DNA of 64,000 nucleotides from Alphaproteobacteria bacterium (lineage in GTDB: Bacteria; Pseudomonadota; Alphaproteobacteria; SP197), in assembly GCA_964291415.2 (NCBI GenBank), contig OZ219918.1:1056001-1120000 (forward strand), in the 5' to 3' direction. Positions 12,768 through 28,476 of the stretch are shown one piece after another. Position numbers and translations under genes: made by a program. Below the pieces are notes generated by a model. It saw nothing but the letters and a program-made list of their open reading frames with translations, searched no databases and was not told the origin of the DNA. Position 1 is the first letter of the stretch. Each line of letters starts with the position of its first letter.

Positions 12768-12863
12768 CGGCACGGTCCTCTGCCTTCCCGGCGTCCGCCG
12801 TTCTGGCGCAGAAACGACCCGCCCGGTATCCCTGCGTCCCGCCGCTCCGCACCGTCGGAGTTC

Positions 12864-13309
12864 ATGATATCCAAGCTTCTTTTCGCGTTTCCCGCCTTGG
12901 TTGCCGTATCGTGCGGCGCGCATGCGTCGGGCCCCTAATGTTCGAGGCCGAATGTCGCGAGGACTATGCGACCGTGGGAGAAATCACGGCCGGTCGCCTT
13001 CACCGCGACGTCGACATCGTCGCAAGCGACGGTGTCCCCTTCGTGGGAGGGCACGGCGGCCAGCTGTCCGGTATCGTGATCGTCCGGCAGGGAACCGGAA
13101 ACGACTTCCGTCTGGACGCTCTGATGGAACTGCGGTTGCCGGGTGCGGCCCTCTACGGTCAGGCGCGCCGTGAAGAAGGCGAGCTGCACCAGGGTGAGGG
13201 GAAGCCGAGGATGATCGGAGCCGAGGACGAGTTCGCGGGCGTCGAGGCCACCTGCACTGACTCGGTCCTGCAAGGGGAGACGCTTCTCATCGTCCACGAC
13301 TGTGTGTAA
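12864..13309 (+). pseudogene. possible frameshifted secreted protein of unknown function
   Basis: GGAG RBS + MISKLLFAFPALVAVSCGAHA signal peptide ends at TAA 12936-12938; a protein-like frame continues from ATG 12938 to 13309. Confidence 0.4.
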
Positions 13310-13546
13310 CGCCGGCCAGGCCGCTGACTGGCCAGGATGCCGCATGTTCGAGGATAACGGTCGTCTCGCGACACCTCGGGGCAGCCGTCAGAGGGTGGCC
13401 CCGGGTCGGACGGGTGAACCGATACATGTGACATCGCCGGGTCCAGTACACGGCAACCGGTGTCCTCGGCGACATCGCGTATGACGCTTGCCTGGAGAGG
13501 GCTGTGCGCTCGGGAAAGGGAAGGGGCATCCACTCCGTCGCCTGCG

Positions 13547-14314
13547 ATGAAACAGACTCAATCATACATTGTCGGCGCGACCCCTCGTAGCGGAAGCACG
13601 CTCCTGTGCGACCTTCTCTCCGATACCGCAGCGGCGGGACAACCCCACTCGTACTTCCGGCGTGAAGACATCTCCTGGTGGGCGCATCAATTCGGCGTGT
13701 CGACCGCAGACTGGCGCACCGAGCACGAGTTCGATCGAGCCTACCTGGAAGCCGTGCGGCGGCAGGGGACCGGTGGAACCCGGGTCTTTGGCCTGCGGTT
13801 GATGTGGGAGAGCGTTGCCGGTCTGTCGACAAGGCTCGACTCCTTCTACCCGAATCTGGACAGCGACAAAGCTCGATTCAAGGCAGCATTCGGAGCACAG
13901 GTCTACGTGCATCTCTCCCGCGACGACAAGGTTGCGCAAGCTGTCTCGCTCCTCAGAGCGGAACAAACCGGTCTGTGGCATGTCAATGCCGACGGCACCG
14001 AACGCGAGCGGCTCAAGGCGGGCGAGGTACCTGTCTATAGTGGCCGGGATCTTTCGCGGCTTGTGACACAGATGGAGGAGCACGACAGGTGCTGGACCCG
14101 GTGGTTTCATGAGCAGGACATCGAGCCTCTCCGCATCACCTATGAGAGGCTTTCCGCGGAACCGCAGGCAACGTTGGCGACCGTGTTGTCGGCCCTCGGC
14201 ATGGACTCCGTGCTTGCGGAAGCCGCTGAGCCCAGAACCGCGAAACTGGCGGATCGCGTGAGCCGCGAGTGGGCAACGCGCTTCAGGGCGGAGAGTCGCA
14301 GTGCGCCCACATGA
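13547..14314 (+). CDS. Stf0 family sulfotransferase
   Basis: ATPRSGSTLLCDLL (PAPS-binding loop), FGLRLMW, LSRDDKVAQAVS..RA.QTGLWH, LRITYE. Confidence 0.9.
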   Translation: MKQTQSYIVGATPRSGSTLLCDLLSDTAAAGQPHSYFRREDISWWAHQFGVSTADWRTEHEFDRAYLEAVRRQGTGGTRVFGLRLMWESVAGLSTRLDSFYPNLDSDKARFKAAFGAQVYVHLSRDDKVAQAVSLLRAEQTGLWHVNADGTERERLKAGEVPVYSGRDLSRLVTQMEEHDRCWTRWFHEQDIEPLRITYERLSAEPQATLATVLSALGMDSVLAEAAEPRTAKLADRVSREWATRFRAESRSAPT

Positions 14315-14554
14315 TGCCTCCGGCGTGCGGACGGCCTTGCGCAGAGCGACTCAGGCTTCCTTCGTGGAACGGTCGTTCCGGGCTGCCCTCACCCGAGGTT
14401 GTGTCTCTGTCTCGTCAGAGAGGCTGACCTGCGCCCGTGTCGCGTCCCGATCAGCGGCGATGACGCAAGCCGTCGCATAACCTCCACGGCGCCCTCACGC
14501 CAGAGGCGCACCGTTGTTCTGCTGCACAGAGCGGTCGCCTCGTGTCAGACAGAC

Positions 14555-15424
14555 TCAGGCGGGATGCGCGAAATGTTCTTCGATCCAGTCGACGAAAGTC
14601 CGCGCCGCGGGAGTCTCTTCATGTGTGGCCGGAGGCAGGAGGAAATAGCCTTCGGGCATTGCCACACTGTGATCGTACGGACGTTCAAGCCGGCCTTCCG
14701 CGAGCAGCCCGGTCGCCAGCATGTCATGGGCCATCGAGAGGCCGCCGGCGTTCAGGGCTGCGGTCATTGCGACCACGTAGGTTGAAGCGAGATTGACGCT
14801 CCTTTCCGGCGGCAGGGCATGTCCCTGGTCCGCGAGCCATGCGTTCCAGTTCGTCGTCACGCCCGTGCAATCGAAAAGCGGCGCCGTTTCCCACTCGCGG
14901 AACGCCGGTCTCGCGTGTGGCGCACAGACCGGATAGGCCCTTTCCGCCGCGAGCGGCCTCGTAGGCTGCGGCATCAGCGCAGGACGTCCGAAACGGATTT
15001 CAACTTCTGCCACGCCCTCCGCGTTCTGGGGATCCCAGATCGGCGTCGTCAGGTTGAGCGTCAGCCAGGGGTGGGCCTCAAGGAGGGTGCCGAGCCGAGG
15101 TGCGAGCCAGAAGGTCGAGAAGGCAAGGTTGCACCTTACCCTCAACTGCCGCCCGCGATCGCCGGTCAGCGCGCGGGTGCCGGCGGCGAGAACCTCGAAC
15201 GCCTCCTGGACAATGGGGAGGTAGTTCGATCCGCCTTCCGTCAACTGAAGCGCCCGGGTCTTGCGGATGAACAGCGTCAGGCCGACAGCGTCTTCCAGGC
15301 TGCGCACATGCTGGGACACGGCCGACTGGGTGAGGTTCAGTTCAGCCGCGGCCTGCGTGAAGGAAAGATGCCGGGCGGCGGCCTCGAACGCGCGCAGCCA
15401 TGTGAGCGGAGGCAGATTTGTCAT
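14555..15424 (-). CDS. LysR family regulator (GcvA-like)
   Basis: LPPLTWLRAFEAAARHLSFTQAAAELNLTQSAVSQHVRSLE N-terminal HTH. Confidence 0.92.
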   Translation of the reverse strand: MTNLPPLTWLRAFEAAARHLSFTQAAAELNLTQSAVSQHVRSLEDAVGLTLFIRKTRALQLTEGGSNYLPIVQEAFEVLAAGTRALTGDRGRQLRVRCNLAFSTFWLAPRLGTLLEAHPWLTLNLTTPIWDPQNAEGVAEVEIRFGRPALMPQPTRPLAAERAYPVCAPHARPAFREWETAPLFDCTGVTTNWNAWLADQGHALPPERSVNLASTYVVAMTAALNAGGLSMAHDMLATGLLAEGRLERPYDHSVAMPEGYFLLPPATHEETPAARTFVDWIEEHFAHPA

Positions 15425-15451
15425 GGATGGCAAACTCCATGCACAACAGGT

Positions 15452-15470
15452 GCATAAGCATTCCTAATGC
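15452..15470. promoter_or_regulatory. LysR recognition box (T-N11-A dyad)
   Basis: GCATAAG-CATTC-CTAATGC with T15455-N11-A15467, just upstream of the LysR start, followed by ATCGTTTGTC. Confidence 0.65.
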
Positions 15471-15551
15471 TAGTGCCGCGAATCCATCGTTTGTCAACAT
15501 CGAACCCTCTGCTCAGGGTTCTCCGGGAGCCCCGACTGCAGGTCGATTGCG

Positions 15552-15710
15552 ATGGATGCTGGACCCCGGGAACCGGAACCGTGGAAAGGTCGCGTCGATC
15601 CAGCCGCCGCCATCCGCCGGACTGCATGTCTCGGCATGCACGGTTCTGCTGCCAACCGCTTCAGCCTGTCGGTGAACCGGGAGGGAACCAGGCGCGTGAC
15701 CGACCCCACG
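15552..15710 (+). pseudogene. N-terminal relic of a class II aldolase/adducin family gene
   Basis: WKGRVDPAAAIRRTACLGMHGSAANRFSLSVNREGT matches the recalled family start W..RVDLAAAFRWTARL.MHE..ANHFSL.VN..GT; truncated after ~50 codons. Confidence 0.6.
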
Positions 15711-15738
15711 GCCATTCCCGATGAGGAGGGGTTCCGTC

Positions 15739-16785
15739 ATGCCCACTGAGATGAAGAAACCGGGGCCTGCGCCGACCAACGCCGCCTCAAGCGGCGTGAC
15801 GCTTGACAGGAAGACGCTGAAGTCGCTCGCACGGCGCGCCGACGGTCCGGGCCTCGTCTATCTGGCCCAGTGGGGTGCCGGACTGCTCGTCACGGGTTGC
15901 CTCGTTTGGCTCGCCCTCGGCACCTATTGGCTGTGGCCGGCGATGTTCGTCCATGGCGTGCTGTTGACCGTTCCGGTCTATGCGATCAGCCACGAAACGG
16001 CGCACGGCACGGCCTTTCGCAGCACATGGCTCAACGAAACGGTGCTCTGGATCAGTTCGCTGATCTACATGGAGGAGCCGCTGCACCGGCGCTACACCCA
16101 CGCCAACCATCACACCTTCACCTGGCATGTCGGCAAGGACAGCCAGATGCCGTTCGATACACCGATGACGCTTGGCGGCTGGCTGGTTGAAGTCTCCGGG
16201 TTGGGTCTGTTGCGCTTTCACGTGACCGTCCTGGCGCGCCTGGCGAGCGGTCGCTACTCCGACATGATGAGGACGGTGGCTCCGGTCGACGAACTTCGGA
16301 AGATGAGGCGCAATGCCTGGATCTTTCTCGCCCTTTACGCCGCCATCGGCGTGGCGGTGGCGTCGGGAGTCCACGGGCTGCTGTGGTTCCTTGTCCTGCC
16401 ACGTCTCCTGGGAGCGCCGGTCATGCTCCTGTTCACGCTGATCCAGCACGTCGAGATGGGGGAGAACACGCCATCCATTCCGGACAGCACACGGTCCTTC
16501 AGGACCGGCTGGCTGGGCCGGTTCCTCTACATGAACATGAACAATCACGTGGAACATCACCTCTACACGCAGGTGCCGTTCTTCGCGCTGCCGGCCTTGC
16601 GCGACGCGGTGGCCTCGCAGGTTCCCGCTCCGGACCCCGGGTTCTTCCGAACCAACCAGGAGGTGTTCGCGGTCGTCCTGCGCCGGTCACTGGGTCTTTC
16701 GACCAGGTCGCCATCGATCCGCCAGGCGCCGCACATGATCACGACCGGCGGCCCCAGGCGGCATATCGCGCAACGGACCATGTAG
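15739..16785 (+). CDS. membrane di-iron fatty acid desaturase/hydroxylase family, MocD-like
   Basis: His boxes HETAH, HANHH, QH and NNHVEHH; TM segments; GAGGAGG RBS. Confidence 0.88.
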   Translation: MPTEMKKPGPAPTNAASSGVTLDRKTLKSLARRADGPGLVYLAQWGAGLLVTGCLVWLALGTYWLWPAMFVHGVLLTVPVYAISHETAHGTAFRSTWLNETVLWISSLIYMEEPLHRRYTHANHHTFTWHVGKDSQMPFDTPMTLGGWLVEVSGLGLLRFHVTVLARLASGRYSDMMRTVAPVDELRKMRRNAWIFLALYAAIGVAVASGVHGLLWFLVLPRLLGAPVMLLFTLIQHVEMGENTPSIPDSTRSFRTGWLGRFLYMNMNNHVEHHLYTQVPFFALPALRDAVASQVPAPDPGFFRTNQEVFAVVLRRSLGLSTRSPSIRQAPHMITTGGPRRHIAQRTM

Positions 16786-17624
16786 TGCGCCGGATCTACA
16801 CCTTCGGCGGCCAGCCGGCCACGCGGAACCTGACGGTGGCGGATCTCAGGGCCAACAAGTCTGCGGGCATCAAGATGACGCAGGTCTCGGCGCTGAACGG
16901 CGAAGAGGCGGCGGCCTGCGAGTCGGTGGGCATCGATCTCATCACCATCGCCGACGTCGATATCAGGGAGGTGAGGGCGGCAGCACCAACCACCTTCGTC
17001 ACCGGCAGCCAGACCATGGTGCAGTACGTTACCGAGGATGAAGCGCTCGGCGCCGCAATTCGTTGTGCCGAACAGGGCGCAGACGCGATCTACACGCCGC
17101 GCGGCCTGAAGACTGTCGAGCGGCTGGCCGGCGAAGGGTTGTGTGTCCAGGGCCATCTGGGTCTGGTGCCTCGGCTGTCGACACGCGTGGGCGGGCTGAG
17201 GATCATTGGCAGGACGGCAGACGAAGCCATGCGCCTGTGGGAGGACTTTCGCCGTCTGGAAGAAGCCGGCGCGGTTGCCGCCGAGGTCGAATGCGTTGCC
17301 GTCGAGGCCCTCGTCGAGATCGGCAAGCGCAGCGGCCTCGTGACCCATTCAATCGGCGCCGGCTCCGGCGGCGACATCATCTTTTCGTTCATGGAGGATA
17401 TCTGCGGCGACGTGGAGAACCCGCCGCGCCACGCCAGGGCGTGGGCCGACATGCTCTCATTGCGCCGCGCCATGTCCGCTGAGCGTCTCAAGGGTCTGAC
17501 CGGCTTTCGTGACGAGGTCAGGGCAGGGACGTTTCCGCATGAACCCCATCAAGTCTCCATGAAGGCGGGAGAGCACGAGAAGTTCCGCGAAGCGCTGGAC
17601 ATGTGGCAGCCGGTGCACCGGTGA
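16785..17624 (+). CDS. divergent ketopantoate hydroxymethyltransferase (PanB)-like protein
   Basis: GHLGLVP, LEEAGA..EVECV, SIGAG, FRDEVRAGTFP; GTG start overlaps the upstream TAG. Confidence 0.82.
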   Translation: MRRIYTFGGQPATRNLTVADLRANKSAGIKMTQVSALNGEEAAACESVGIDLITIADVDIREVRAAAPTTFVTGSQTMVQYVTEDEALGAAIRCAEQGADAIYTPRGLKTVERLAGEGLCVQGHLGLVPRLSTRVGGLRIIGRTADEAMRLWEDFRRLEEAGAVAAEVECVAVEALVEIGKRSGLVTHSIGAGSGGDIIFSFMEDICGDVENPPRHARAWADMLSLRRAMSAERLKGLTGFRDEVRAGTFPHEPHQVSMKAGEHEKFREALDMWQPVHR

Positions 17625-18919
17625 ACGACGCAGCCGACTACACGAAGCCCTTTGCCGCGAAGCCCCGGCCGCTGACGCTGGAACAGGCGGCTTGGATCAC
17701 GCCGCCCGCTCAGGCGACCGATACCGAAGGCATGATCGACGTGCCGCGCATGCGCGCCTGGCGCCGGAACCGCCTGCGCGAGCAGATCGCCGCCCACGGT
17801 CTCGACGCCGTCGTCCTCGTCGAACCATTGGCGATCCGCTACGCCGCCGGCGTACGCAACTGCACGCTGTTTCAGATGCACATCCAGGCGGGCTATCTCT
17901 TCGTGCCCGCCGACGGCCCTGTCATCTACTTCGACAGCCAGCCGGGTCGCGAGACCGGCCGGCAACTCGAGACAATCGACGAAGTTCGCGACGATCTCGT
18001 GCCGCTCTCATACATGTTTTCGGGCTACCGGCAACAGGACATGGCGCGCAAGTGGGCAGAGCAAATGGGTGATCTGATCGCAACGCACTGCGGCAGCGGC
18101 GCCAGGGTCGGGATCGATCGCGCCGGCTTCCACGCGGAACAGGCCCTCGCCGATCAAGGTTTCGCCATGACCGATGCGGCACCGGTTCTGGCCCATGCCC
18201 GCAAGATCAAGTGTCCGGAAGAAGTCCTCGCCATGAACCTCGCCCTGGCGACGGCGGAGGACGGCATGAGCCGAATGCGCGAGGCCTTGCGCAACGGCGT
18301 CTCGGAGCAGGAACTCTGGGCGCTGATGTGGCGTGCGCTGATCGAAAAGGGCGGCGAATGGCTCGACTACCGCCTGCTTGCCTCGGGCGAACGGACCAAT
18401 CCGTGGCAGCAGGAGGCATCGAGCCGGACGATCCGGGCGGGCGATCTTGTCGTGTTCGACTGCGGGCTGGTCGGTCCGTTCAGCTACGGCGCGGACGTCA
18501 GCCGCGCCCTCCGGTGCGGACCGGGGCGGCCGAGCGACTACCAGAAGACACTCTACACGCTCGCCTGGAACGAGGTGATGCACAACACGCGGTTACTACG
18601 GCCCGGAACATCGTTCCGGGACTTCATGGCCGACCGTTTTCTCCAGGAGCCCGGCTTCGGCGACCAGCCCTATCCCTGTGTGGCGCATGGACTGGGCATG
18701 GCCGACGAATGGCCCGTGATTCTCCATTCCCCGGAACACCCGGATCACTACGACGGGGAATTCGAAGCCGGCATGGTGATCTGTGTCGAGAGCTATGTCG
18801 GCGAAGTCGGCGGCCTCGAAGGAGTCAAGCTGGAGGACCAGGTCCTCATCACCGAATCGGGACCGGTCGTGCTGTCGCGCTACCCCTTCGAAGAGACGCT
18901 TCTTCCCCATGAAATCTGA
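17621..18919 (+). CDS. M24 (Xaa-Pro peptidase fold) protein, DddP-like
   Basis: GGEWLDYRLLASGERTNPW, DVSR, HGLGMADEWP, CVESY, VKLEDQVLITE; GTGA overlap with the upstream gene. Confidence 0.85.
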   Translation: MNDAADYTKPFAAKPRPLTLEQAAWITPPAQATDTEGMIDVPRMRAWRRNRLREQIAAHGLDAVVLVEPLAIRYAAGVRNCTLFQMHIQAGYLFVPADGPVIYFDSQPGRETGRQLETIDEVRDDLVPLSYMFSGYRQQDMARKWAEQMGDLIATHCGSGARVGIDRAGFHAEQALADQGFAMTDAAPVLAHARKIKCPEEVLAMNLALATAEDGMSRMREALRNGVSEQELWALMWRALIEKGGEWLDYRLLASGERTNPWQQEASSRTIRAGDLVVFDCGLVGPFSYGADVSRALRCGPGRPSDYQKTLYTLAWNEVMHNTRLLRPGTSFRDFMADRFLQEPGFGDQPYPCVAHGLGMADEWPVILHSPEHPDHYDGEFEAGMVICVESYVGEVGGLEGVKLEDQVLITESGPVVLSRYPFEETLLPHEI

Positions 18920-18934
18920 GCGAGGAAACGGGAC

Positions 18935-19243
18935 ATGGGCACATGGATCGAGGTCTGCGCGGCGGGAGACATCGACGAAGAGGATCTCATCCGCTGGGAT
19001 CATGATGGCCGGTCATTCGCGATCTACAACACGCAGAAGGGATTCTTCGCCACCGACGGATACTGCACTCACGAGCAGCAGCACCTCGCGGACGGCCTCG
19101 TTACCGGTACCGTCATCGAATGCCCGCTGCATCAGGGGAGGTTCGACATCGTCACGGGCAAGGCGCTTCGTCCGCCCGTCCGCATCGCCCTGGAGACCTA
19201 TCCCGTCAAGGTCGAAGACGGCATCGTCTTCATCCGGCTCTGA
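18935..19243 (+). CDS. Rieske [2Fe-2S] ferredoxin, MocE-like
   Basis: CTHE...HLADG...IECPLHQGRFD; DIDEEDLIRWDH N-terminus. Confidence 0.93.
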   Translation: MGTWIEVCAAGDIDEEDLIRWDHDGRSFAIYNTQKGFFATDGYCTHEQQHLADGLVTGTVIECPLHQGRFDIVTGKALRPPVRIALETYPVKVEDGIVFIRL

Positions 19244-19273
19244 TAAGGATCCGGCTCCTCGGTCTGCCGGCGA
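19162..19273 (+). repeat. direct repeat copy 1 (ferredoxin 3' end plus downstream bases)
   Basis: GGCGCTTCGTCCGCCCGTCCGC...TTCATCCGGCTCTGA...GTCTGCCGGCGA, repeated at 21073-21180. Confidence 0.92.
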
Positions 19274-19471
19274 TGGTCTCAAGGCGCGCGGTCTCACGGC
19301 CTCGGTTCCCGGGCTCGACAGCGCGCGCCCGTCGCTCTTGAGCCACCACATTCATCGGGTGCCCGCGGGGCATTTGCGCCCGAAGGGCCTGCCTCGCGGA
19401 AGCGATCAAAGCGACGTCAGTTCCGCGTACAATCGCGATTGCCATTCAAGAAACTCAAGTGGGTGTTCAAG

Positions 19472-19615
19472 ATGAAGCGAGCATTGATCTTTGATCTTGA
19501 TGGAACGTTGCTGACGTCCGAAAAGATCGTGCATTGCGAAACGCTCTCATCCGTGTTGGCCTGCGCGAAACTGGGATTTGTGATCGTCATCGCCACATCC
19601 CGACCTCATCGCGGC
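19472..19615 (+). pseudogene. truncated Cof-type HAD hydrolase (N-terminus only)
   Basis: MKRALIFDLDGTLL (motif I) and VIATSRP (motif II), then the sequence degenerates; visibly more AT-rich than flanks. Confidence 0.7.
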
Positions 19616-19924
19616 TTCCGGCACAAGCATGGCGATGATGGCGCGGGACCACCAAGCAACGCGCCGCGGCACGCGTGTGAACGCCACCGCGACGGCTGAC
19701 AACACCAGCAGAAACGGTTGAAATTCGAGGGGAACTCCCCTAGAGTCGCACTCACGCAGGGCCATGCCCGCGTCTATCAGGGGGAACCCGATGACCACCA
19801 TTCCACGCTACTGTTCCATCACTTGCACCGGCGACACCTTCCTCCTCGATGGGGCGATGGCGAATGAAGGGCACGGACGCGCAGGTCGGGCGAAGTATGC
19901 TCGCATCATGGCACGGAATGTCCC

Positions 19925-20278
19925 GTGAGCCCCGTCGTCTACATCGAAACATCGGTCGTCAGCTATCTGACGGCCTGGCCGTCGCGGGACATGCTCGTCT
20001 CGGCCTATCAGGTGGCGACGCGCGAATGGTGGACCGCGGCGGCGAAGAGGTACGACCTTCTCGCGGCGGCGCTTGTCGACCAGGGTGCAGTGCCGCACCA
20101 CGCCGCCGGCGACGCGGTGCACATCGCCACCGCCGCCTGCCATGCCGTTCACTATCTGGTGAGCTGGAATTTCCGGCACATTGCCAATGCCGCCATGAAC
20201 CCGCACATCGCCCGTGTCTGCCGGCAGGAAGGGTATGAACTGCCGTTCATCTGCACGCCAACTCAACTCATGGAGTAG
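19925..20278 (+). CDS. PIN-domain (VapC-like) protein with an apparent internal deletion
   Basis: VYIETSVVSYLTA.PSRD, TREWW, DAVHIA, YLVSWNFRHIANA, ICTP; only 117 aa. Confidence 0.75.
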   Translation: MSPVVYIETSVVSYLTAWPSRDMLVSAYQVATREWWTAAAKRYDLLAAALVDQGAVPHHAAGDAVHIATAACHAVHYLVSWNFRHIANAAMNPHIARVCRQEGYELPFICTPTQLME

Positions 20279-21387: not shown

Positions 21388-23355
21388 TCAGGCGCCGATC
21401 GCCATGCCGGCCTTCAGCCCGTCGAGCACCGCCTCCTCAGCCGTGCGCGGCGAGAGCGCATCGCCAATCACATGCACCTCTCCCGGCCACCCGGCCAGTT
21501 CACCGGCAAGCGCCGCATCGCTCGACGTACCCTGGCACAACACCAGAGTCTCGACCTCGTCGCAGATGATCGGGTCGTCGGTGACCGTATGCTGCAGGTA
21601 GACGGTATCGCGGTCGGCGCCGAACAGCCGGGCGTAGGGGATGATCTCGACGCCAAGCCTGGAAATCTGGCCGATCCAGTGGTCGCGCACCGCTTCCTGG
21701 ATGTTCTGGCCCGGCACCATTCCGGTGACTGCCAGGCGCACGCGGCAGCCGTCCCGCGCCAGCTTCTCGGCCAGACCCAGACCGATCCAGTCGTTCTTCC
21801 AGTCCGCGACCAGCACGGAACCGCCGACATTGGCCTCTCCCCGGATGACCGACCAGGATTCGACCACATGGGCTTCGTCCTCGCCCTCGACCGCGGGCCG
21901 GTAGGGCTGCCCGCCTGTGGCGACGACTGCGGCGTCGGGGCCGGCCTTGCGTATCGTGTCTGCCGTGACAGCAACGCCGAGCGCGACTCGCGCTCCCGCC
22001 AGCTCCATCTCGCGGGCAAGATTGGTCACGATGCCGCCAAATTCGGCGCGTCCGGGAAGTGACTGGGCCAGCAGGGCCTGCCCGCCGAGCCTGCCGGACC
22101 GTTCGTAGAGGGTCACGTCGTGGCCGCGCTCGGCGAGCACCGCGGCGGCCTTCATGCCGGCCGGACCGCCGCCCACGACCCAGACGGTCCGGCGCCGGCG
22201 TGCGGGTGTCTTGACGTGGCCGAACGCGAGTTCGCGACCGGTCTCGGGGTGCTGGATGCAGGAGACGGCGTGATACTGCAACCGATGGCCAATGCACGCC
22301 TGATTGCAGGCAATGCAGCTGCGGATGTCGTCGACTCGTCCGGCCTCGGCTTTCGCGGCGAACGCTGGATCGGCGATCATGCCACGCACCAGGCCGACCA
22401 TGTCGGCCTGGCCGCGGGCGACAATGTCCTCGGCGAGATGGGGCTGGTTGATTCGTCCGGCGACGAGCACCGGAAGCGACAGATGCTGCCTCAGCGCTCC
22501 TGCGCAGGCTGCGACGTGCCCGGGCTCGATCGCCATGGGCGGGACGACATCGACCCAGCCTCGCGCGGTCCGTGTGTTGCCGCCGATGACGTTGACATAG
22601 TCGACGAGGCCCCGGTCCTCCAGGGTCTGGCAGATCTCCAGCACCTCGCCGGACTCCATGGCGCCGGGCGTGGCGTCCGCGTCGCTGATCCTGACACCGA
22701 GTATCGGGTCGCGGCCGATGCTGGCCCGGGCGGCCTCGAGGATCTCGACAAGGAACCGCATGCGATTCTCGAGACTTCCACCGTAGGCGTCGTCGCGCCG
22801 GTTGATCCGGGGATTGAGAAACTGGGCGATCAGATAGCCCATGCTCGCCAGAATCTCGACGCCGTCGAGACCTCCCTCGACGATGTGGCCGGCGGCCCGC
22901 GCATAGGAGTCGGCCAGTTCGGCGAGCAGGGCCGGTGTCGCCGGTGTCGGCATGAGACTGTAGCGTTCGAACGGCACCGCAGACGACGAGATCGCCGGAC
23001 GGCGCGCACCGTCCAGCGTGGCCCTGATGGCTGCCCCCGGGTGAAAGAGCTGACCCAGGATCGCGCAGCCGTGGCCGTGGACGGCGTCTGCCAGGCGCCG
23101 GAAGCCCGGCACGATGCCCGGCTCACCTGCCAGCAGGTACCCGGCGGCGAGATCGAAGCTGGGATGCATCGACATGCCTTCGGCAATGATCATGCCGGCG
23201 CCGCCCCGGGCGCGCGCCTCGTGATAGGCGATGAGGGCGTCCGAGACCCGGCCCCGGTCGCCGAGCGACGTGCCATGGGCCGGAAAGAACAGCCGATTCC
23301 GGATCCGGTGGCCTCGAATCTCGATCGGCTGGAACAGATGCGGGAAGACCGACAT
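21388..23355 (-). CDS. NADH:flavin oxidoreductase (OYE TIM barrel + 4Fe-4S + FAD domain; TMADH/FadH-like architecture)
   Basis: IRNRLFFPAH, QLFHPG, NRRDDAYGGSLENRMRF, CIACNQAC...C, VVGGGPAG. Confidence 0.9.
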   Translation of the reverse strand: MSVFPHLFQPIEIRGHRIRNRLFFPAHGTSLGDRGRVSDALIAYHEARARGGAGMIIAEGMSMHPSFDLAAGYLLAGEPGIVPGFRRLADAVHGHGCAILGQLFHPGAAIRATLDGARRPAISSSAVPFERYSLMPTPATPALLAELADSYARAAGHIVEGGLDGVEILASMGYLIAQFLNPRINRRDDAYGGSLENRMRFLVEILEAARASIGRDPILGVRISDADATPGAMESGEVLEICQTLEDRGLVDYVNVIGGNTRTARGWVDVVPPMAIEPGHVAACAGALRQHLSLPVLVAGRINQPHLAEDIVARGQADMVGLVRGMIADPAFAAKAEAGRVDDIRSCIACNQACIGHRLQYHAVSCIQHPETGRELAFGHVKTPARRRRTVWVVGGGPAGMKAAAVLAERGHDVTLYERSGRLGGQALLAQSLPGRAEFGGIVTNLAREMELAGARVALGVAVTADTIRKAGPDAAVVATGGQPYRPAVEGEDEAHVVESWSVIRGEANVGGSVLVADWKNDWIGLGLAEKLARDGCRVRLAVTGMVPGQNIQEAVRDHWIGQISRLGVEIIPYARLFGADRDTVYLQHTVTDDPIICDEVETLVLCQGTSSDAALAGELAGWPGEVHVIGDALSPRTAEEAVLDGLKAGMAIGA

Positions 23356-23464
23356 GGCCGATGTCCGTGACGTTCGGGCCGTGAAGTTGACGGAATGAGG
23401 CTTGATGCCACGATCCATGCCTGTTGTACACTCGCCGGTGAACTCGAATCCTGGATGCCCCGCC

Positions 23465-24628
23465 ATGGGTCACCGAGTTGTCAATCAATGCTCGGCCTGG
23501 AGCGATGTGGAAGCGATTGCGGGCGCGAACGCCCTGGACGCCCTGGATGGGCCGGTCGAGAAGGCGTCGGCACTGCCCAATGTCTGCTACACGAGCGCGG
23601 CGTGGCAGAAGCTCGAGTTCGAGCGCCTCTTCGCCCGAAGCTGGTTTGTCGCAGGCTTCCTCCATGATGTGCCGGAGCCTGGTGACGCCATGCCGGTCAA
23701 GGCTTTCGGGATGCCGTTGCTCGTGTTGCGCGACCTGGGTGGCGTGGTCCGCGTCTTCCATAACGTCTGCCGCTACCGGCGCACGGTTCTGGTGACCGGG
23801 AAGTGCTCGGGGCTCCGGGAATTCACGAGTCCCTGTCGCGGCTGGACCTACGATCTTGACGGTTCGCTGAGGCGCGGCCCGTCCCTTGATGGCGGCGGCC
23901 CTCACGACGACCCGCCCGGCCTCGTGCCGGTCCGTTCGGACGTGTGGCAGCACTGGATCTTCGTCAACCTCGATGGCAAGGCGCAGTCCCTGGAAGACTA
24001 TCTGGCACCGGCGGCAGACCTCGTCCGGGGCTACGATCTTGGGGCAGCGCGCCACGCAGGGACGGTGCATTTCGAGGTTGCGGCCAACTGGAAGCTGGCG
24101 CTGGAGAACTACATCGAGCCTTACCACGTCTTCGCGGCCCATCCGAGGCTGCATGACTTCGTTCCGATGTCGGAACGGATGCCGAGCCGAATCGACCGCC
24201 ACGTGATGTGGAACCGCTATCTCTTCAGGGCCTCGGAGCCTGGACGGGGCGAAGGGCTGCCCTACTTCCCGAACCTGTCACCCGAGGCCGCCCGCCAGGG
24301 CGTCTGGTTCATCCTCCCCACGGCCTTTGGCGTCGAGGTCTATCCGGATCACGTGGCGAGCTTTCATGTCGCGCCGGTCGCACCGGACCGATGCCGAGAG
24401 CGCATCGACGTCTACCTCGTCGGCGAGGCTGCCACCTCGACGGACTGGGCCGAGGGACGTCAGGCCGTGCTCGACATGTGGAACGAACTCAACCACGAGG
24501 ACATAAGCCTCATCGAGAGCATGCAGAGGGGCCGGATGTCGCCGACCTACGATGGCGGCAGCCTGTCGACCTACTGGGACGAAGCTCCCCTCCATCTCAG
24601 TCGCATGGTCGTTGAGGGCATGCGCTGA
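23465..24628 (+). CDS. Rieske oxygenase alpha-subunit homolog (choline monooxygenase-like) with degenerate Rieske motif
   Basis: ALP..CYTS, LFARSW, VRVFHNVC, NWKLALENYIEPYHVFAAH, EDISLIESMQRG; CRY and SPCR in place of CxH and CxxH. Confidence 0.85.
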   Translation: MGHRVVNQCSAWSDVEAIAGANALDALDGPVEKASALPNVCYTSAAWQKLEFERLFARSWFVAGFLHDVPEPGDAMPVKAFGMPLLVLRDLGGVVRVFHNVCRYRRTVLVTGKCSGLREFTSPCRGWTYDLDGSLRRGPSLDGGGPHDDPPGLVPVRSDVWQHWIFVNLDGKAQSLEDYLAPAADLVRGYDLGAARHAGTVHFEVAANWKLALENYIEPYHVFAAHPRLHDFVPMSERMPSRIDRHVMWNRYLFRASEPGRGEGLPYFPNLSPEAARQGVWFILPTAFGVEVYPDHVASFHVAPVAPDRCRERIDVYLVGEAATSTDWAEGRQAVLDMWNELNHEDISLIESMQRGRMSPTYDGGSLSTYWDEAPLHLSRMVVEGMR

Positions 24629-24952
24629 GCCTCATCACTCCTTGCCGCCGCCAGGGGGTTCGGGTATCGAATGACGCTTGGGATCGACTCCGAAGACCCG
24701 GGACAGGGTTTTCGATGCGCCGCCAGCCTCGAAACCCTCTGCCGCCCGACGCGGACGGGTATCGGTCGCAATGATCGGGACGACGGGTATGATTGATGCC
24801 GCCCTGGTGGAGCAGGCTCAGTCTTGCGGGGCCAGCGGCACGGGGTGCGCATAGCCGGTCGAAACGGACGTCGCATTCGGGTGGCCGAGGCGTCCCCGTC
24901 ACCGGACGAACCCGATCGCAACGCGGTCATCCGGGCCCGACAAGGGGGGAAC

Positions 24953-26584
24953 ATGCGAGTCAGCAAACTGAGAACCAGTGTCATCACCCTGGCTGCTGTC
25001 GTTTTGTCAGGCAGCTTCACCCAGGTCTGGAGCGCCGAGTCCCACCCGGTCACGGGCGAAGAGTTGTCGGACGACCAGACCTTCACCTATCGCCTGCTCG
25101 ACCAGTTTCCGACCCTCGACCCGCAACTCAACCAGGACGTGTCGGGCTTTCACGTGATTCGCGATCTCTTCGAAGGTCTCCTGAGCCAGGATGCCGAAGG
25201 CAATCTCGTGCCCGGGGTGGCGACAGGGTTCACGGCGTCGGACAACAACACGACCTACACGTTCACCCTGCGCCCGAATGCCAGGTGGTCGAACGGCGAT
25301 CCGGTGACGGCCCATGACTTCGTCTATGCATGGAGACGGGCGGTTGATCCCGTCACCGCCTCTCCCTACGGCTGGTACCTTGAACTGACCCAGATCGTGA
25401 ACGCTGCGGATATCCTGGCTGGCGAGAAGGAACCGGCCGAACTTGGCGTGCGCGCCGTGGACGATCACACCCTTGAGGTGAGGCTGTTCGCGCCGCTGCC
25501 CTACTTTCCGGCCATGACGACCTATGCGACGCTGTTCCCGGCGCACCGCGCGACCATCGAGGCTCATGGCGCCAAGTGGACGGCGCCCGGGAACCTGGTC
25601 TCCAACGGTGCCTATGTTCTCAGCGAACTGGTGCTGAACGAGTACCACAGGCGCGTGAAGAACCCGCAGTACTGGGGTGCCGACGCCGTGATCATCGAGG
25701 AGGTGACAGGCCTCGTCATCAACGACGACAACCAGGCCCTGACCCGCTATCGCGCCGGTGAACTTGACCACCTCCAGCCCCTGCCCGCCGGACAGTATCC
25801 GGCGCTCAAGGAAGAAATGCCCGATGAGGCGACCAGTGTTCCGCGCCTGTGTTCCTACTACTACGCCATCAACCACTCACAGAGCGGCCATCCGGCGTTG
25901 CAGGACGTGCGCGTGCGCAGGGCGCTCAGCATGGCCATCGACCGCAACGTGATTGTCGAACGGCTCCTGAAGGGTGGCCAATGGCCGGCCTACAACTTCA
26001 CGCATCTCAAGACTGCGGGCTTCGAGATGCCCGAGATTGCCTATGCGTTGCTCGATCAGGCCGAGCGAGACGACGAGGCCAAGCGCCTCATGGCGGCTTC
26101 CGGCATCGAGGACCTGACGCTCAGGCTGATCTACAACACCTCCGAAAGCCACAAACAGATTGCCACTGTCATCAGCCAGATGTGGAAGCAGAAACTCGGC
26201 GTGACGACTGAACTGGCCAACTTCGAGTGGAAGACCTACCTCAACATCATGGACAATCAGGAGTTCGATCTGGCCCGTTCAGGCTGGTGCGGCGACTACA
26301 ACGAGGCATCGACCTTTCTCGACCTGCTCACCACGACCCACGGCGCAAATCGGGGCAAGTACTCGAATCCTGAAGTCGACGAACTCATGAATGCCTCGAA
26401 GACCGTCGCAGATCCGGGCGCGATCTACGCCAAGGTCGAACAGATCCTTGCCGAGGACATGGCCATCATTCCGATCTATCACTATGCCAACACGTTCCTG
26501 CTCTCCAGCGACATGCGGGGCTGGCCCTATGACAACGTCGAAAACAACTGGTACTCGAAGAACCTCTATCGTGTAGCGGACTGA
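24953..26584 (+). CDS. oppA: oligopeptide ABC transporter substrate-binding protein
   Basis: Signal peptide, TLDPQ, DLFEGL, YTFTLR..ARWSNGDPVTAHDF, WCGDYNEASTFL. Confidence 0.92.
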   Translation: MRVSKLRTSVITLAAVVLSGSFTQVWSAESHPVTGEELSDDQTFTYRLLDQFPTLDPQLNQDVSGFHVIRDLFEGLLSQDAEGNLVPGVATGFTASDNNTTYTFTLRPNARWSNGDPVTAHDFVYAWRRAVDPVTASPYGWYLELTQIVNAADILAGEKEPAELGVRAVDDHTLEVRLFAPLPYFPAMTTYATLFPAHRATIEAHGAKWTAPGNLVSNGAYVLSELVLNEYHRRVKNPQYWGADAVIIEEVTGLVINDDNQALTRYRAGELDHLQPLPAGQYPALKEEMPDEATSVPRLCSYYYAINHSQSGHPALQDVRVRRALSMAIDRNVIVERLLKGGQWPAYNFTHLKTAGFEMPEIAYALLDQAERDDEAKRLMAASGIEDLTLRLIYNTSESHKQIATVISQMWKQKLGVTTELANFEWKTYLNIMDNQEFDLARSGWCGDYNEASTFLDLLTTTHGANRGKYSNPEVDELMNASKTVADPGAIYAKVEQILAEDMAIIPIYHYANTFLLSSDMRGWPYDNVENNWYSKNLYRVAD

Positions 26585-26612
26585 TCGAAGGCCCTAACGT
26601 CCGGATCGCCGG

Positions 26613-27536: not shown

Positions 27537-27537
27537 C

Positions 27538-28473: not shown

Positions 28474-28476
28474 ACC

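What the first reader, a model, noticed from the sequence alone, without database searches (positions are those of the whole stretch)
15739..19243. Candidate new pathway: MocD-like oxygenase + PanB-like + DddP-like + MocE ferredoxin
Seen: four tightly linked genes (TAG/GTG and GTGA overlaps, then a 15-nt gap). Known: MocD/MocE/MocF were proposed as an oxygenase system for demethylating the rhizopine 3-O-methyl-scyllo-inosamine; PanB moves a hydroxymethyl group between CH2-THF and a 2-oxoacid; DddP is an M24-fold lyase. Inference: methyl hydroxylation by the membrane di-iron enzyme, removal of the C1 unit by the PanB-like protein, and cleavage by the M24 enzyme, on an unknown methylated osmolyte or host metabolite. 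No inositol genes and no MocF reductase are adjacent, so this is not the rhizopine cluster.
Basis: partly seen in the sequence, partly recalled or inferred. Interest (0 to 1): 0.8.

Follow-up and report, generated by a model that had tools for sequence, protein, structure and literature searches.

The report
Oxygenase operon with PanB-like partner
A regulated four-gene operon pairs a membrane iron oxygenase and its ferredoxin with an unusual relative of the vitamin-B5 enzyme PanB and a relative of a DMSP-splitting enzyme; the pairing recurs across marine and root-nodule bacteria and probably strips methyl groups from betaine-like osmolytes by an untested route.

Summary
Four co-directional genes lie at 15739-19243, with 1-nt and 4-nt overlaps and a 15-nt gap. 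They encode a three-His-box FA_desaturase-type oxygenase, a PanB-like protein, a DddP-like M24 protein and a MocE-type Rieske ferredoxin. A LysR gene lies divergently upstream.

None is the canonical enzyme. The PanB-like protein scores 79 bits against a 207.55 cut-off and lacks two of three Mg ligands and the substrate lysine. The genome has its own panB elsewhere. The M24 protein scores 291 against DddP's 600. It keeps five of six metal ligands plus Tyr366 and Asp377, and Asp297 is Gly in 22 of 22 orthologues.

In 80 related loci, 66 have a membrane di-iron oxygenase within 3 kb of the PanB-like gene; 0 of 20 canonical panB loci do. The oxygenase type switches repeatedly. M24 is optional (22 of 80). 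Contexts are betaine-type in marine bacteria and sugar-type, MocD/MocE-linked, in rhizobia.

Best reading (about 0.45): oxidative demethylation of a betaine-like compound, with the PanB-like protein handling the C1 unit. The substrate, tetrahydrofolate use and the M24 reaction are all inferred.

The parts
14555..15433 (-). LysR-family regulator, divergent from the operon
   Evidence: Pfam HTH_1 76.2 bits and LysR_substrate 55.8 bits. Best NCBIfam hits are the GcvA subfamily (202 bits, cut-off 288) and the choline-sulfate utilisation regulator (169.3, cut-off 324.8); both are below cut-off. A LysR homologue lies within 3 kb of the PanB-like gene in 45 of 80 loci.
15582..15716 (+). Relic (about 45 codons) of a class II aldolase/adducin-family gene that is intact in related clusters
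   Evidence: tblastn of the L060 protein, residues 40-84: 53% identity over 45 aa, E 8e-12. The intact gene is Pfam Aldolase_II at 141-145 bits and NCBIfam PRK07490 at 410 bits against a 260 cut-off. It lies within 3 kb of the PanB-like gene in 26 of 80 loci.
15739..16785 (+). g1: membrane di-iron oxygenase of the FA_desaturase family (348 aa)
   Evidence: PF00487 at 97.1 bits. His boxes H85xxxH89, H121xxH124H125 and H270xxH273H274, plus hydrophobic stretches 42-83 and 192-236. All eight His are invariant in 20 orthologues. Weak NCBIfam hit to GntB arginine hydroxylase, 29.6 bits. About 32% identity to plasmid genes annotated MocD-like.
16785..17624 (+). g2: PanB-like TIM-barrel protein (279 aa), a family distinct from canonical PanB
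   Evidence: PF02548 at 104.8 bits. NCBIfam panB 79 against cut-off 207.55. 31% identity to the genome's own panB on contig C1. Model pLDDT 85, and the best PDB folds are PanB at TMq 0.64-0.68. Active-site changes are shown.
17621..18919 (+). g3: DddP-like M24 'pita-bread' metalloenzyme (432 aa)
   Evidence: Peptidase_M24 plus Creatinase_N. NCBIfam DddP 291.3 against cut-off 600. Best PDB hit is the DddP chain 4rzy at 232 bits. Site pattern D-G-D-Y-H-D-E-E in 22 of 22 orthologues.
18935..19243 (+). g4: Rieske [2Fe-2S] ferredoxin of the MocE type (102 aa)
   Evidence: Rieske 58.3 bits. TIGR02377 MocE_fam_FeS 134.3 against cut-off 136.15. C44-x-H46 and C63-x-x-H66 read from the translation.
21388..23466 (-). 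Context: Oxidored_FMN plus Pyr_redox_2 flavoprotein (692 aa). By recall it resembles the DgcA/StcD class of tertiary-amine demethylases.
   Evidence: Pfam and NCBIfam OYE-type hits. Conserved next to the operon only in L030 and L031.
23402..24628 (+). Context: Rieske oxygenase alpha subunit. The true start is probably downstream of 23402.
   Evidence: Ring_hydroxyl_A plus Rieske. Best NCBIfam hit is the GbcA glycine betaine monooxygenase at 122.7 bits, cut-off 670. An SBP_bac_5 ABC transporter follows at 24824-29445.

Best explanation
This is a LysR-controlled catabolic operon for oxidative removal of methyl groups from a zwitterionic, betaine-like osmolyte. The proposed steps follow. g4, a Rieske ferredoxin, is reduced by a reductase encoded elsewhere in this genome and passes electrons to g1. 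g1, a membrane di-iron monooxygenase, hydroxylates a heteroatom-bound methyl group. The resulting hydroxymethyl group, or the formaldehyde it releases, is at the oxidation level of PanB's cofactor 5,10-methylene-tetrahydrofolate. It is taken over by g2, a PanB-derived TIM barrel that has lost PanB's 2-oxoacid/Mg site, probably onto tetrahydrofolate. g3, a DddP-like enzyme that keeps the lyase residues, is an accessory module. It either cleaves an onium compound to feed the oxygenase or cleaves the demethylated product. Shown here: gene content, conserved synteny, residue patterns and genomic contexts. Inferred: the substrate class, methyl hydroxylation, use of tetrahydrofolate, and the g3 reaction.
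For: (1) Of 80 loci carrying a PanB-like gene, 66 have an FA_desaturase- or FA_hydroxylase-type membrane oxygenase within 3 kb, and 73 have some oxygenase. Two of the seven exceptions have mobile-element genes in place of the upstream genes, and two more have the contig ending within 1 kb of the PanB-like gene on one side. Around 20 canonical panB genes the count is 0 of 20. (2) On the PanB-like tree the partner type changes; well-supported branches force at least 4 changes for FA_desaturase and 6 for FA_hydroxylase. The PanB-like protein is therefore the constant and the oxygenase is exchangeable. (3) The same pairing occurs in very different substrate contexts. Betaine-type: ferredoxin reductase plus BCCT transporter directly downstream in L035, L047 and L048; ProX, mandelate-racemase-family and proline-racemase genes in Mesorhizobium; a GBBH/TmpA-like dioxygenase inside the cluster in L053 and L058; an AraC plus DJ-1 regulator. 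Sugar-type: LacI | MocD-like - MocE - PanB-like - sugar ABC transporter in R. etli; ribokinase - PanB-like - sterol desaturase - Rieske - TIM barrel - FAD oxidoreductase - GH88 in Bradyrhizobium. What these contexts share is a methyl/C1 unit, not a carbon skeleton. (4) g2 keeps the PanB fold, the GHLGL motif and the glutamate aligned with PanB's catalytic base. It has Ser, Tyr and Pro where PanB has Asp84, Lys112 and Glu114, and a deletion of about 21 residues after the GDS motif. This fits loss of 2-oxoacid binding. (5) g1 has intact His boxes and g4 an intact Rieske motif. (6) Papers read as passages: mocDEF is rhizopine-induced (PMC10107442), and mocDEF homologues are up-regulated by exudate rich in the O-methyl-inositol pinitol (PMC5789663). 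(7) The window has a GbcA-like Rieske oxygenase and an OYE-type flavoprotein 2-5 kb downstream, and the genome has 23 GcvT-domain matches. That is the gene complement expected of an organism living on methylated amines.
Against: No biochemical data exist for any member, and no paper was found. Tetrahydrofolate use rests only on distant homology to PanB (22-23% identity to solved structures). Only 1 of 80 loci has a GcvT or FolD gene within 10 kb, so no folate/C1 gene is linked. N- and O-hydroxymethyl intermediates break down spontaneously, so a dedicated enzyme is not chemically required. This genome has two further FA_desaturase plus Rieske ferredoxin pairs without a PanB-like gene. A Paracoccus plasmid has the pair alone, and a Rhodobacteraceae plasmid couples it to M24 with a TPP decarboxylase instead. 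Many PanB-like genes sit next to dehydrogenases (SDR, HIBADH-like, ApbA-like) and a class II aldolase, which points to carbon-skeleton chemistry. BCCT adjacency is seen in only 3 of 80 loci. In this window the aldolase gene is a relic and no reductase is adjacent, so the operon may be partly decayed.
Confidence: 0.45

Rival explanations
1. This is C-demethylation. The oxygenase hydroxylates a carbon-bound methyl group. A neighbouring carbonyl is present or is made by a dehydrogenase. The PanB-like protein then removes the hydroxymethyl group by a reverse-PanB (retro-aldol) reaction onto tetrahydrofolate. M24 cleaves the remaining skeleton.
For: It is the direct reverse of the known PanB reaction. 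Dehydrogenase genes sit tightly beside the PanB-like gene in many loci: SDR in 9, HIBADH-like in 8 and ApbA/PanE-like in 7 of 80, plus an NAD(P) oxidoreductase on plasmid CP081100. An HpcH aldolase and an aldehyde dehydrogenase accompany it in the SAR11 loci. Oxygenase-plus-SDR demethylation at a carbon is known for sterol C-4 (recalled, not from a call).
Against: The positions of two of PanB's three Mg ligands and of its substrate lysine are Ser, Pro and Tyr in the whole family. These residues stabilise the 2-oxoacid enolate in PanB. No dehydrogenase is in this operon. The BCCT, GBBH-like and ProX contexts point to N-methyl compounds.
Confidence: 0.15
2. The operon performs C-N or C-S bond cleavage rather than demethylation. 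The oxygenase hydroxylates the carbon next to the onium group, as carnitine oxygenase does, or M24 eliminates a volatile amine or sulfide. The PanB-like protein and the class II aldolase then process the aldehyde or oxoacid skeleton and have nothing to do with a C1 unit.
For: g3 keeps DddP's candidate catalytic Tyr366 and Asp377 and five of six metal ligands in 22 of 22 orthologues. A class II aldolase gene lies in 26 of 80 clusters. Acyl-CoA dehydrogenase and acyl-CoA synthetase genes lie nearby in Roseobacter-group loci. A TPP decarboxylase and a 2-hydroxyacid dehydrogenase accompany the FA_desaturase-Rieske-M24 trio on plasmid CP081100.
Against: The PanB-like protein is conserved at 37-49% identity into rhizobial sugar-type clusters whose substrates must have different skeletons. 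M24 and the aldolase are both dispensable modules, and the aldolase is only a relic here.
Confidence: 0.2
3. The four genes keep their canonical or unrelated activities (lipid desaturation or hydroxylation, pantothenate synthesis, Xaa-Pro peptidase) and are linked by chance or for a biosynthetic purpose.
For: The Pfam family names alone. Other FA_hydroxylase-family enzymes modify lipids (recalled, not from a call).
Against: The genome has a canonical panB elsewhere. g2 and g3 fall far below the equivalog cut-offs. A Rieske ferredoxin partner and a divergent LysR gene are conserved. Transporter genes flank related clusters. Synteny is conserved across families.
Confidence: 0.05

Closest known systems
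MocD/MocE/MocF rhizopine oxygenase system of Sinorhizobium meliloti and Rhizobium leguminosarum
   Same: It combines an FA_desaturase-family membrane protein with a MocE-type Rieske ferredoxin. g4 scores 134.3 on TIGR02377. mocDEF is one inducible transcription unit (PMC10107442, passages). In R. etli a MocD-like/MocE pair is directly followed by a PanB-like gene.
   Different: g1 is only about 32% identical to genes annotated MocD-like. No MocF reductase and no mocA/B/C/R or inositol genes lie nearby. The described moc unit has no PanB-like or M24 gene. MocDEF biochemistry itself is a proposal, as far as I recall.
PanB, ketopantoate hydroxymethyltransferase (PDB 1m3u, 1o66, 1oy0, 3vav)
   Same: Same TIM-barrel fold (TMq 0.64-0.68). 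The GH(L/I/V)GL motif and the glutamate aligned with the catalytic base are kept.
   Different: 22-23% identity, and 79 bits against a 207.55 cut-off. 'GDS' is 'IAD' and is followed by a deletion of about 21 residues. Asp84 is Ser, Lys112 is Tyr and Glu114 is Pro. There is an extra C-terminal stretch of about 25 residues. It is a separate clade on a long branch and is linked to oxygenases, not to pan genes. E. coli residue numbers are recalled, not from a call.
DddP, the M24-fold DMSP lyase (PDB 4rzy, 4b28)
   Same: Best structural-sequence relative at 232 bits. Creatinase_N plus pita-bread domains. Asp295, Asp307, His371, Glu406, Glu421, Tyr366 and Asp377 are all kept.
   Different: 291 bits against DddP's cut-off of 600. 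The DddP-specific ligand Asp297 is Gly in all 22 orthologues. It is one of seven DddP-like paralogues in this genome; the other six, scored as N-terminally truncated pieces, also fall below the cut-off. It sits inside an oxygenase operon rather than alone.
Rieske-type betaine demethylases with separate C1 handling (GbcAB, Stc2/HpbB1C1) and GcvT-domain demethylases that load formaldehyde on tetrahydrofolate (DMGDH, Tdm, DmdA)
   Same: The proposed logic is the same: oxidise an N-methyl group and dispose of the formaldehyde-level carbon. GbcA-like Rieske oxygenases replace or accompany the membrane oxygenase in 7 of 80 loci.
   Different: The oxygenase here is a membrane di-iron enzyme. The putative C1-handling protein is PanB-derived, not a GcvT fold. 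No GcvT gene is linked (1 of 80 loci). The comparison rests on recalled knowledge of those systems.

Membership tests
PanB / ketopantoate hydroxymethyltransferase (TIGR00222, NF001452) | Scores above the curated equivalog cut-off | tested here: not met
   79 bits against 207.55 for TIGR00222, and 89.1 against 272 for NF001452.
PanB / ketopantoate hydroxymethyltransferase (TIGR00222, NF001452) | Mg2+ ligands Asp45, Asp84 and Glu114 and substrate-binding Lys112 (E. coli numbering, recalled) | tested here: not met
   Only the Asp45 position is kept, as D57. Asp84 is Ser, Lys112 is Tyr and Glu114 is Pro. This holds in the phmmer alignment to 1m3u and in a MAFFT alignment of 14 family members with 7 canonical PanBs.
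PanB / ketopantoate hydroxymethyltransferase (TIGR00222, NF001452) | Catalytic base Glu181 and the GHxGLxPQ motif; TIM-barrel fold | tested here: met
   E169 and GHLGLVPR are conserved. Foldseek's best hits are PanB structures.
PanB / ketopantoate hydroxymethyltransferase (TIGR00222, NF001452) | Transfers hydroxymethyl from methylene-tetrahydrofolate to 2-oxoisovalerate | not testable with these tools
   This needs an enzyme assay or panB complementation.
DddP DMSP lyase (NF043017) | Scores above the curated equivalog cut-off | tested here: not met
   291.3 bits against 600.
DddP DMSP lyase (NF043017) | Six metal ligands Asp295, Asp297, Asp307, His371, Glu406, Glu421 (PMC4108388, passages) | tested here: not met
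   Five of six are kept. Asp297 is Gly in g3 and in 22 of 22 operon-linked orthologues.
DddP DMSP lyase (NF043017) | Invariant Tyr366 and Asp377, the candidate catalytic bases | tested here: met
   Y351 and D362 of g3 align to them and are conserved in 22 of 22 orthologues.
MocE-family 2Fe-2S ferredoxin (TIGR02377) | Score above cut-off; Rieske CxH...CxxH motif; about 100 aa, stand-alone | tested here: inconclusive
   134.3 bits against 136.15, just below the cut-off. The motif C44-x-H46 ... C63-x-x-H66 is present and the length is 102 aa.
FA_desaturase-type membrane di-iron oxygenase (PF00487; MocD, AlkB and GntB relatives) | Three histidine boxes, membrane-spanning segments, Pfam score above cut-off | tested here: met
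   97.1 bits against 29.7. HxxxH, HxxHH and HxxHH, with hydrophobic stretches 42-83 and 192-236. The His residues are invariant in 20 orthologues.
Rhizopine catabolism cluster (mocCABRDEF) | MocD, MocE and MocF together with mocA/B/C/R and dependence on inositol catabolism genes | tested here: not met
   No reductase, binding protein, MocR-type regulator or inositol genes appeared among the ORFs scanned within about 10 kb. The best own-genome match to a cluster-linked ferredoxin reductase is 27-28% identical and lies about 530 kb away on the same contig.

The most novel reading that the evidence does not exclude
The PanB-like family is a previously unrecognised class of C1-handling protein. 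In this reading it evolved from ketopantoate hydroxymethyltransferase by losing the 2-oxoacid/Mg site, and it now partners interchangeable oxygenases (FA_desaturase-type, sterol-desaturase-type, Rieske, 2OG). It captures the hydroxymethyl or formaldehyde unit produced by oxidative N- or O-demethylation, probably as methylene-tetrahydrofolate. That would define a modular demethylation system used by marine Alphaproteobacteria (including SAR11) on betaine-like osmolytes and by rhizobia on methylated plant sugars or inositols. Here it is coupled to a DddP-like lyase that may act on a nitrogen or sulfur analogue of DMSP.
Probability: 0.35. Interest if true: 0.8.

Novelty: new variant of a known kind. 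Interest (0 to 1): 0.65.

Why it matters
Methylated osmolytes such as betaines, DMSP and their relatives are major currencies of marine carbon, nitrogen and sulfur flow. Their demethylation releases toxic formaldehyde, which cells must route into one-carbon metabolism. The known routes use Rieske or flavin demethylases with GcvT-type folate domains.

A PanB-derived partner of membrane di-iron oxygenases would add a new enzyme pairing to this chemistry. The family is not small: 143 cluster representatives at 50% identity score E <= 1e-30, and members occur in Roseobacter-group bacteria, Rhodospirillales, SAR11, some Gammaproteobacteria and rhizobial plasmids.

It would also correct a widespread misannotation, because these genes are named '3-methyl-2-oxobutanoate hydroxymethyltransferase / pantothenate biosynthesis'. 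It would give a function to part of the large, uncharacterised DddP-like family, and DddP-like genes are counted as DMSP lyases in ocean surveys. Finally, it makes testable what MocD-type oxygenases do.

Tried and rejected
Gene fusions. A search for longer proteins gave one hit, P0121 (663 aa, FA_desaturase plus PanB-like pieces). BLASTP shows matching blocks separated by unrelated sequence, as a frameshifted read-through would give. An apparent 554-aa fusion in L062 came from my own ORF extension and contains stops. Longer hits of the profile search are a tandem of a canonical PanB domain plus a PanB-like domain (P0126) and fragments joined to unrelated domains. I claim no oxygenase fusion.

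Complex prediction of g1 with g2 gave no verdict (score 0.00). It counts neither for nor against binding.

The promoter and terminator scan of 14400-20000 found nothing upstream of g1 or after g4 beyond chance: 2 promoter-like sites against 0.7 expected, both elsewhere, and 2 terminator-like sites against 3.2 expected, both inside g1. Aligning the upstream regions of 11 loci gave no shared regulator box, and my T-N11-A dyad scan printed no site. The alignment instead revealed the aldolase gene and its relic.

Folate-gene linkage: only 1 of 80 loci has a GcvT or FolD gene within 10 kb.

Literature. Seven searches found no paper on a PanB-like protein with a desaturase-type oxygenase, on DddP-like paralogues in such operons, or on pinitol demethylases. 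The library covers open-access papers and bioRxiv only, and supplements were not opened. The one 'panB' hit in a Ruegeria fitness paper is the canonical gene SPO0102 (PMC10041152, one passage).

Sequencing runs. One sponge metatranscriptome (X4) has contigs 90-97% alike over parts of all four genes. These include pieces across the g2/g3 and g3/g4 junctions (17490-17774 and 18383-19225). The tool warns that DNA can be present in RNA libraries, so I treat this only as a hint that a relative's operon is present, and perhaps expressed, in sponge-associated communities. The small-share runs that I did not lay are not used. Stretches without cover are not interpreted.

The careful tree search did not finish in 288 s, so the quick IQ-TREE tree is used. 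Five loci (L062, L077, L098, L101, L102) were left out because the matched stretch was short or held a stop.

My greedy ORF calls in GC-rich loci were noisy. Counts therefore come from tblastn.

Full report
**What is there**

The sequence and ORF list show four co-directional genes.
- g1 runs 15739-16785. Its ATG lies 7 nt after GAGGAGGGG.
- g2 runs 16785-17624. Its GTG overlaps the TAG of g1 by one base.
- g3 runs 17621-18919. Its GTG overlaps the TGA of g2 in GTGA.
- g4 runs 18935-19243, after a 15-nt gap.

A LysR gene (14555-15433) is transcribed divergently. Pfam assigns FA_desaturase to g1, Pantoate_transf to g2, Peptidase_M24 plus Creatinase_N to g3, and Rieske to g4.

**None of the four is the canonical enzyme**

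g1 has the three histidine boxes of membrane di-iron oxygenases (H85xxxH89, H121xxHH125, H270xxHH274) and two hydrophobic regions. The histidines are invariant in 20 orthologues. Its nearest annotated plasmid homologues are unnamed 'fatty acid desaturases' of marine Rhodobacterales at 52-57% identity. Genes annotated MocD-like are only about 32% identical.

g4 scores 134.3 bits on the MocE ferredoxin model, just under its cut-off of 136.15. It has the Rieske motif C44-x-H46 ... C63-x-x-H66.

g2 scores 79 bits on the panB equivalog model, whose cut-off is 207.55. It is 31% identical to the genome's own panB, which lies on another contig. An AlphaFold model (pLDDT 85) finds PanB structures as best folds (TMq 0.64-0.68, 22-23% identity). 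Isocitrate-lyase/PEP-mutase folds are far behind. Two alignments agree on the active-site changes: a phmmer alignment to E. coli PanB and a MAFFT alignment of 14 family members with 7 canonical PanBs.
- 'GDS' is 'IAD', followed by a deletion of about 21 residues.
- The Asp of 'DMPF' is Ser.
- 'K-x-E-G-G' is 'Y-T-P-R-G'.
- 'GHxGLxPQ' and the glutamate aligned with the catalytic base are kept.

With E. coli numbering, which I recall rather than take from a call, two of three Mg ligands (Asp84, Glu114) and Lys112 are lost. Asp45 and Glu181 remain.

g3 is most like solved DddP structures (232 bits to 4rzy) but scores 291 against the DddP cut-off of 600. I used the residues named in PMC4108388 (passages). 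g3 keeps Asp295, Asp307, His371, Glu406, Glu421, Tyr366 and Asp377. It has Gly at the DddP-specific ligand Asp297. All 22 operon-linked orthologues share this pattern.

**Comparative genomics**

A profile of the PanB-like protein retrieved 80 loci with 10-kb flanks. tblastn with the window's proteins gives these architectures:
- 11 loci have all four genes in the same order (L030, L032-L035, L039, L040, L048, L049, L059, L060).
- 2 loci have g1-g2-g3 with no g4 detected (L041, L046).
- 11 loci have g1-g2-g4 without M24.
- 9 loci have M24 without the FA_desaturase.

I then used representatives of every neighbouring oxygenase type, identified by Pfam. Counts within 3 kb of the PanB-like gene are:

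| Feature | Loci of 80 |
|---|---|
| FA_desaturase | 24 |
| Rieske ferredoxin | 24 |
| M24 | 22 |
| FA_hydroxylase ('sterol desaturase'), main type | 41 |
| FA_hydroxylase, second type | 3 |
| Rieske oxygenase alpha | 7 |
| FNR-type reductase | 10 |
| Ferredoxin reductase | 3 |
| BCCT transporter | 3 |
| 2OG oxygenase (the SAR11 loci) | 7 |
| LysR | 45 |
| Any membrane di-iron oxygenase | 66 |
| Any oxygenase | 73 |

Of the seven loci without an oxygenase, L031 and L047 have relaxase or recombinase genes where the upstream genes should be. L061 and L094 have the contig ending within 1 kb of the PanB-like gene on one side. As a control I fetched 20 canonical panB loci with 4 kb on each side, mostly from the same genus and so not independent. 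None had any of these partners, and one had a PhyH-like gene.

On a quick maximum-likelihood tree, the PanB-like proteins form a clade separated from canonical PanB by a long, fully supported branch. The tree has 83 rows; 5 loci were dropped and the careful search did not finish. The partner type changes on it, and starred branches force at least 4 changes for FA_desaturase and 6 for FA_hydroxylase. The PanB-like protein is thus the constant element and the oxygenase is exchangeable. M24-bearing clusters fall in one part of the tree whatever the oxygenase type.

**Contexts**

Marine loci point to quaternary ammonium compounds.
- In L035, L047 and L048 the operon continues with a ferredoxin reductase and a BCCT transporter. 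The transporter's best NCBIfam hit is the glycine betaine BCCT, at 410 bits, below its cut-off.
- In L053 and L058 a dioxygenase with a GBBH-like N-domain sits between the PanB-like and M24 genes. Its best hits are TmpA and gamma-butyrobetaine dioxygenase, both below cut-off.
- An AraC plus DJ-1 regulator, a sulfatase, an acyl-CoA dehydrogenase and an acyl-CoA synthetase lie nearby in Roseobacter-group loci.

Annotated plasmids add further contexts.
- Mesorhizobium amorphae: ProX, mandelate-racemase-family genes, LysR, PanB-like, sterol desaturase, 2Fe-2S ferredoxin, FAD reductase, proline-racemase family. By recall this resembles hydroxyproline-betaine clusters.
- Phaeobacter inhibens: LysR | inositol-oxygenase family - sterol desaturase - PanB-like.
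- Bradyrhizobium: AraC | ribokinase - PanB-like - sterol desaturase - Rieske - TIM barrel - FAD oxidoreductase - GH88 - MFS.
- R. etli: LacI | FA_desaturase family - MocE ferredoxin - PanB-like - sugar ABC transporter.

The oxygenase pair also occurs without a PanB-like gene. A Paracoccus plasmid has it alone. A Rhodobacteraceae plasmid has it with M24, a TPP decarboxylase and a 2-hydroxyacid dehydrogenase. This genome has two more such pairs.

In the window itself, an OYE-type flavoprotein and a GbcA-like Rieske oxygenase with an ABC transporter lie 2-5 kb downstream. The LysR protein is closest to the GcvA and choline-sulfate regulators. The genome has 23 GcvT-domain matches and seven DddP-like paralogues. 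The six paralogues other than g3, scored as N-terminally truncated pieces, do not reach the DddP cut-off either.

**A fifth gene**

Aligning the regions upstream of g1 showed that many relatives have a class II aldolase gene between LysR and the oxygenase. It is Pfam Aldolase_II and NCBIfam PRK07490, and it lies within 3 kb in 26 of 80 loci. In the window only about 45 codons remain, at 15582-15716 (53% identity, E 8e-12). The operon here is therefore a reduced version. It also lacks an adjacent reductase: the best genome match to the L035 reductase is 27-28% identical and far away.

**How it most likely works**

The conserved core is an electron-fed oxygenase next to a PanB-derived barrel. 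The substrates implied by the contexts differ widely (betaines against sugars or inositols). What they can share is a methyl group.

Hydroxylating an N- or O-methyl group yields a hydroxymethyl or formaldehyde unit. That is exactly the oxidation level of PanB's cofactor, methylene-tetrahydrofolate. The PanB-like protein has lost the 2-oxoacid/Mg site while keeping the fold and the base.

I therefore favour oxidative demethylation with the PanB-like protein handling the C1 unit (confidence about 0.45). M24 would be an accessory lyase or hydrolase for an onium compound. Published passages fit MocD-type demethylation: mocDEF is induced by rhizopine (PMC10107442), and mocDEF homologues respond to pinitol-rich exudate (PMC5789663).

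Points against this reading:
- Nothing links tetrahydrofolate except homology.
- No folate gene is adjacent (1 of 80 loci).
- Hydroxymethyl intermediates on heteroatoms decay spontaneously.
- Frequent neighbouring dehydrogenases and the aldolase suggest carbon-skeleton chemistry. This keeps two rivals alive: C-demethylation by reverse-PanB chemistry (0.15) and C-N/C-S cleavage followed by skeleton processing (0.2).

**Novelty**

Seven literature searches found no description of this pairing. The library is open-access only, and supplements were closed. The profile search finds 143 cluster representatives at E <= 1e-30. Public annotation calls them panB.

I rate it a new variant of a known kind: a MocDE- or GbcAB-like oxidative demethylase system with a new accessory protein and an optional DddP-like module. 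Contigs from a sponge metatranscriptome resemble all four genes and bridge two gene junctions. This is only a hint of expression.

The complex prediction gave no verdict.

Noticed in passing
window 15582-15716 (+): The 'intergenic' region between the LysR gene and g1 holds a relic of about 45 codons of a class II aldolase gene. The gene is intact in 26 of 80 related clusters. L033, from the same genus, has a shortened 181-aa version.
   Followed up: yes
window 21388-29445: A second putative betaine-demethylation unit lies here. It has an Oxidored_FMN plus Pyr_redox_2 flavoprotein (minus strand), a divergent Rieske oxygenase whose best NCBIfam hit is GbcA, and an SBP_bac_5 peptide/opine-type ABC transporter. 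It is conserved next to the operon only in the closest relatives (L030, L031).
   Followed up: partly
genome G000: C4:1037357-1039813, C2:970651, C2:76349, C2:699568, C4:266009: Six further DddP-like M24 paralogues, 40-45% identical to g3. Four have the full DddP residue pattern. Scored as N-terminally truncated pieces, all fall below the NCBIfam DddP cut-off (274-409 bits against 600). Counting such genes as DMSP lyases would overestimate.
   Followed up: partly
genome G000: C2:787970-789212 and C2:296313-297559: Two more FA_desaturase plus Rieske ferredoxin pairs (36-38% and 37-41% identity to g1 and g4) without a PanB-like gene. The genome also has at least 10 Rieske oxygenase alpha genes and 23 GcvT-domain matches.
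   Followed up: no
L103-L109 (Pelagibacteraceae single-cell genomes), around 5.7-13 kb: SAR11 has a conserved variant: PhyH, 2OG oxygenase, ApbA/PanE-like reductase, DUF1907, a 137-aa protein, PanB-like (44-45% identical to g2), HpcH aldolase and aldehyde dehydrogenase. There is no membrane oxygenase. This looks like a different, reverse-pantoate-like pathway.
   Followed up: partly
L053 10819-11964 and L058 (Tropicibacter, Falsiruegeria): A GBBH-like_N plus TauD dioxygenase sits between the PanB-like and M24 genes. Its best NCBIfam hits are TmpA and gamma-butyrobetaine dioxygenase. A Rieske oxygenase and a sterol-desaturase-type oxygenase lie in the same cluster, giving three oxygenases in one operon.
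   Followed up: partly
P0126 (542 aa, metagenomic protein): A tandem protein with a canonical PanB domain (residues 7-244) followed by a PanB-like domain (278-537).
   Followed up: no
window 11292-14314: Upstream genes: a PLP-dependent decarboxylase (11292-12767), a 181-aa ORF without a Pfam match, and an Stf0-type sulfotransferase (13460-14314). They are conserved with the operon only in L030. A possible small sulfated-amine pathway.
   Followed up: no
L060 13826-15764; L084: In Hoeflea a second M24/Creatinase_N protein and an arylmalonate-decarboxylase-like protein follow the cluster. By recall this resembles the ectoine utilisation genes eutD/doeA and eutA.
   Followed up: no
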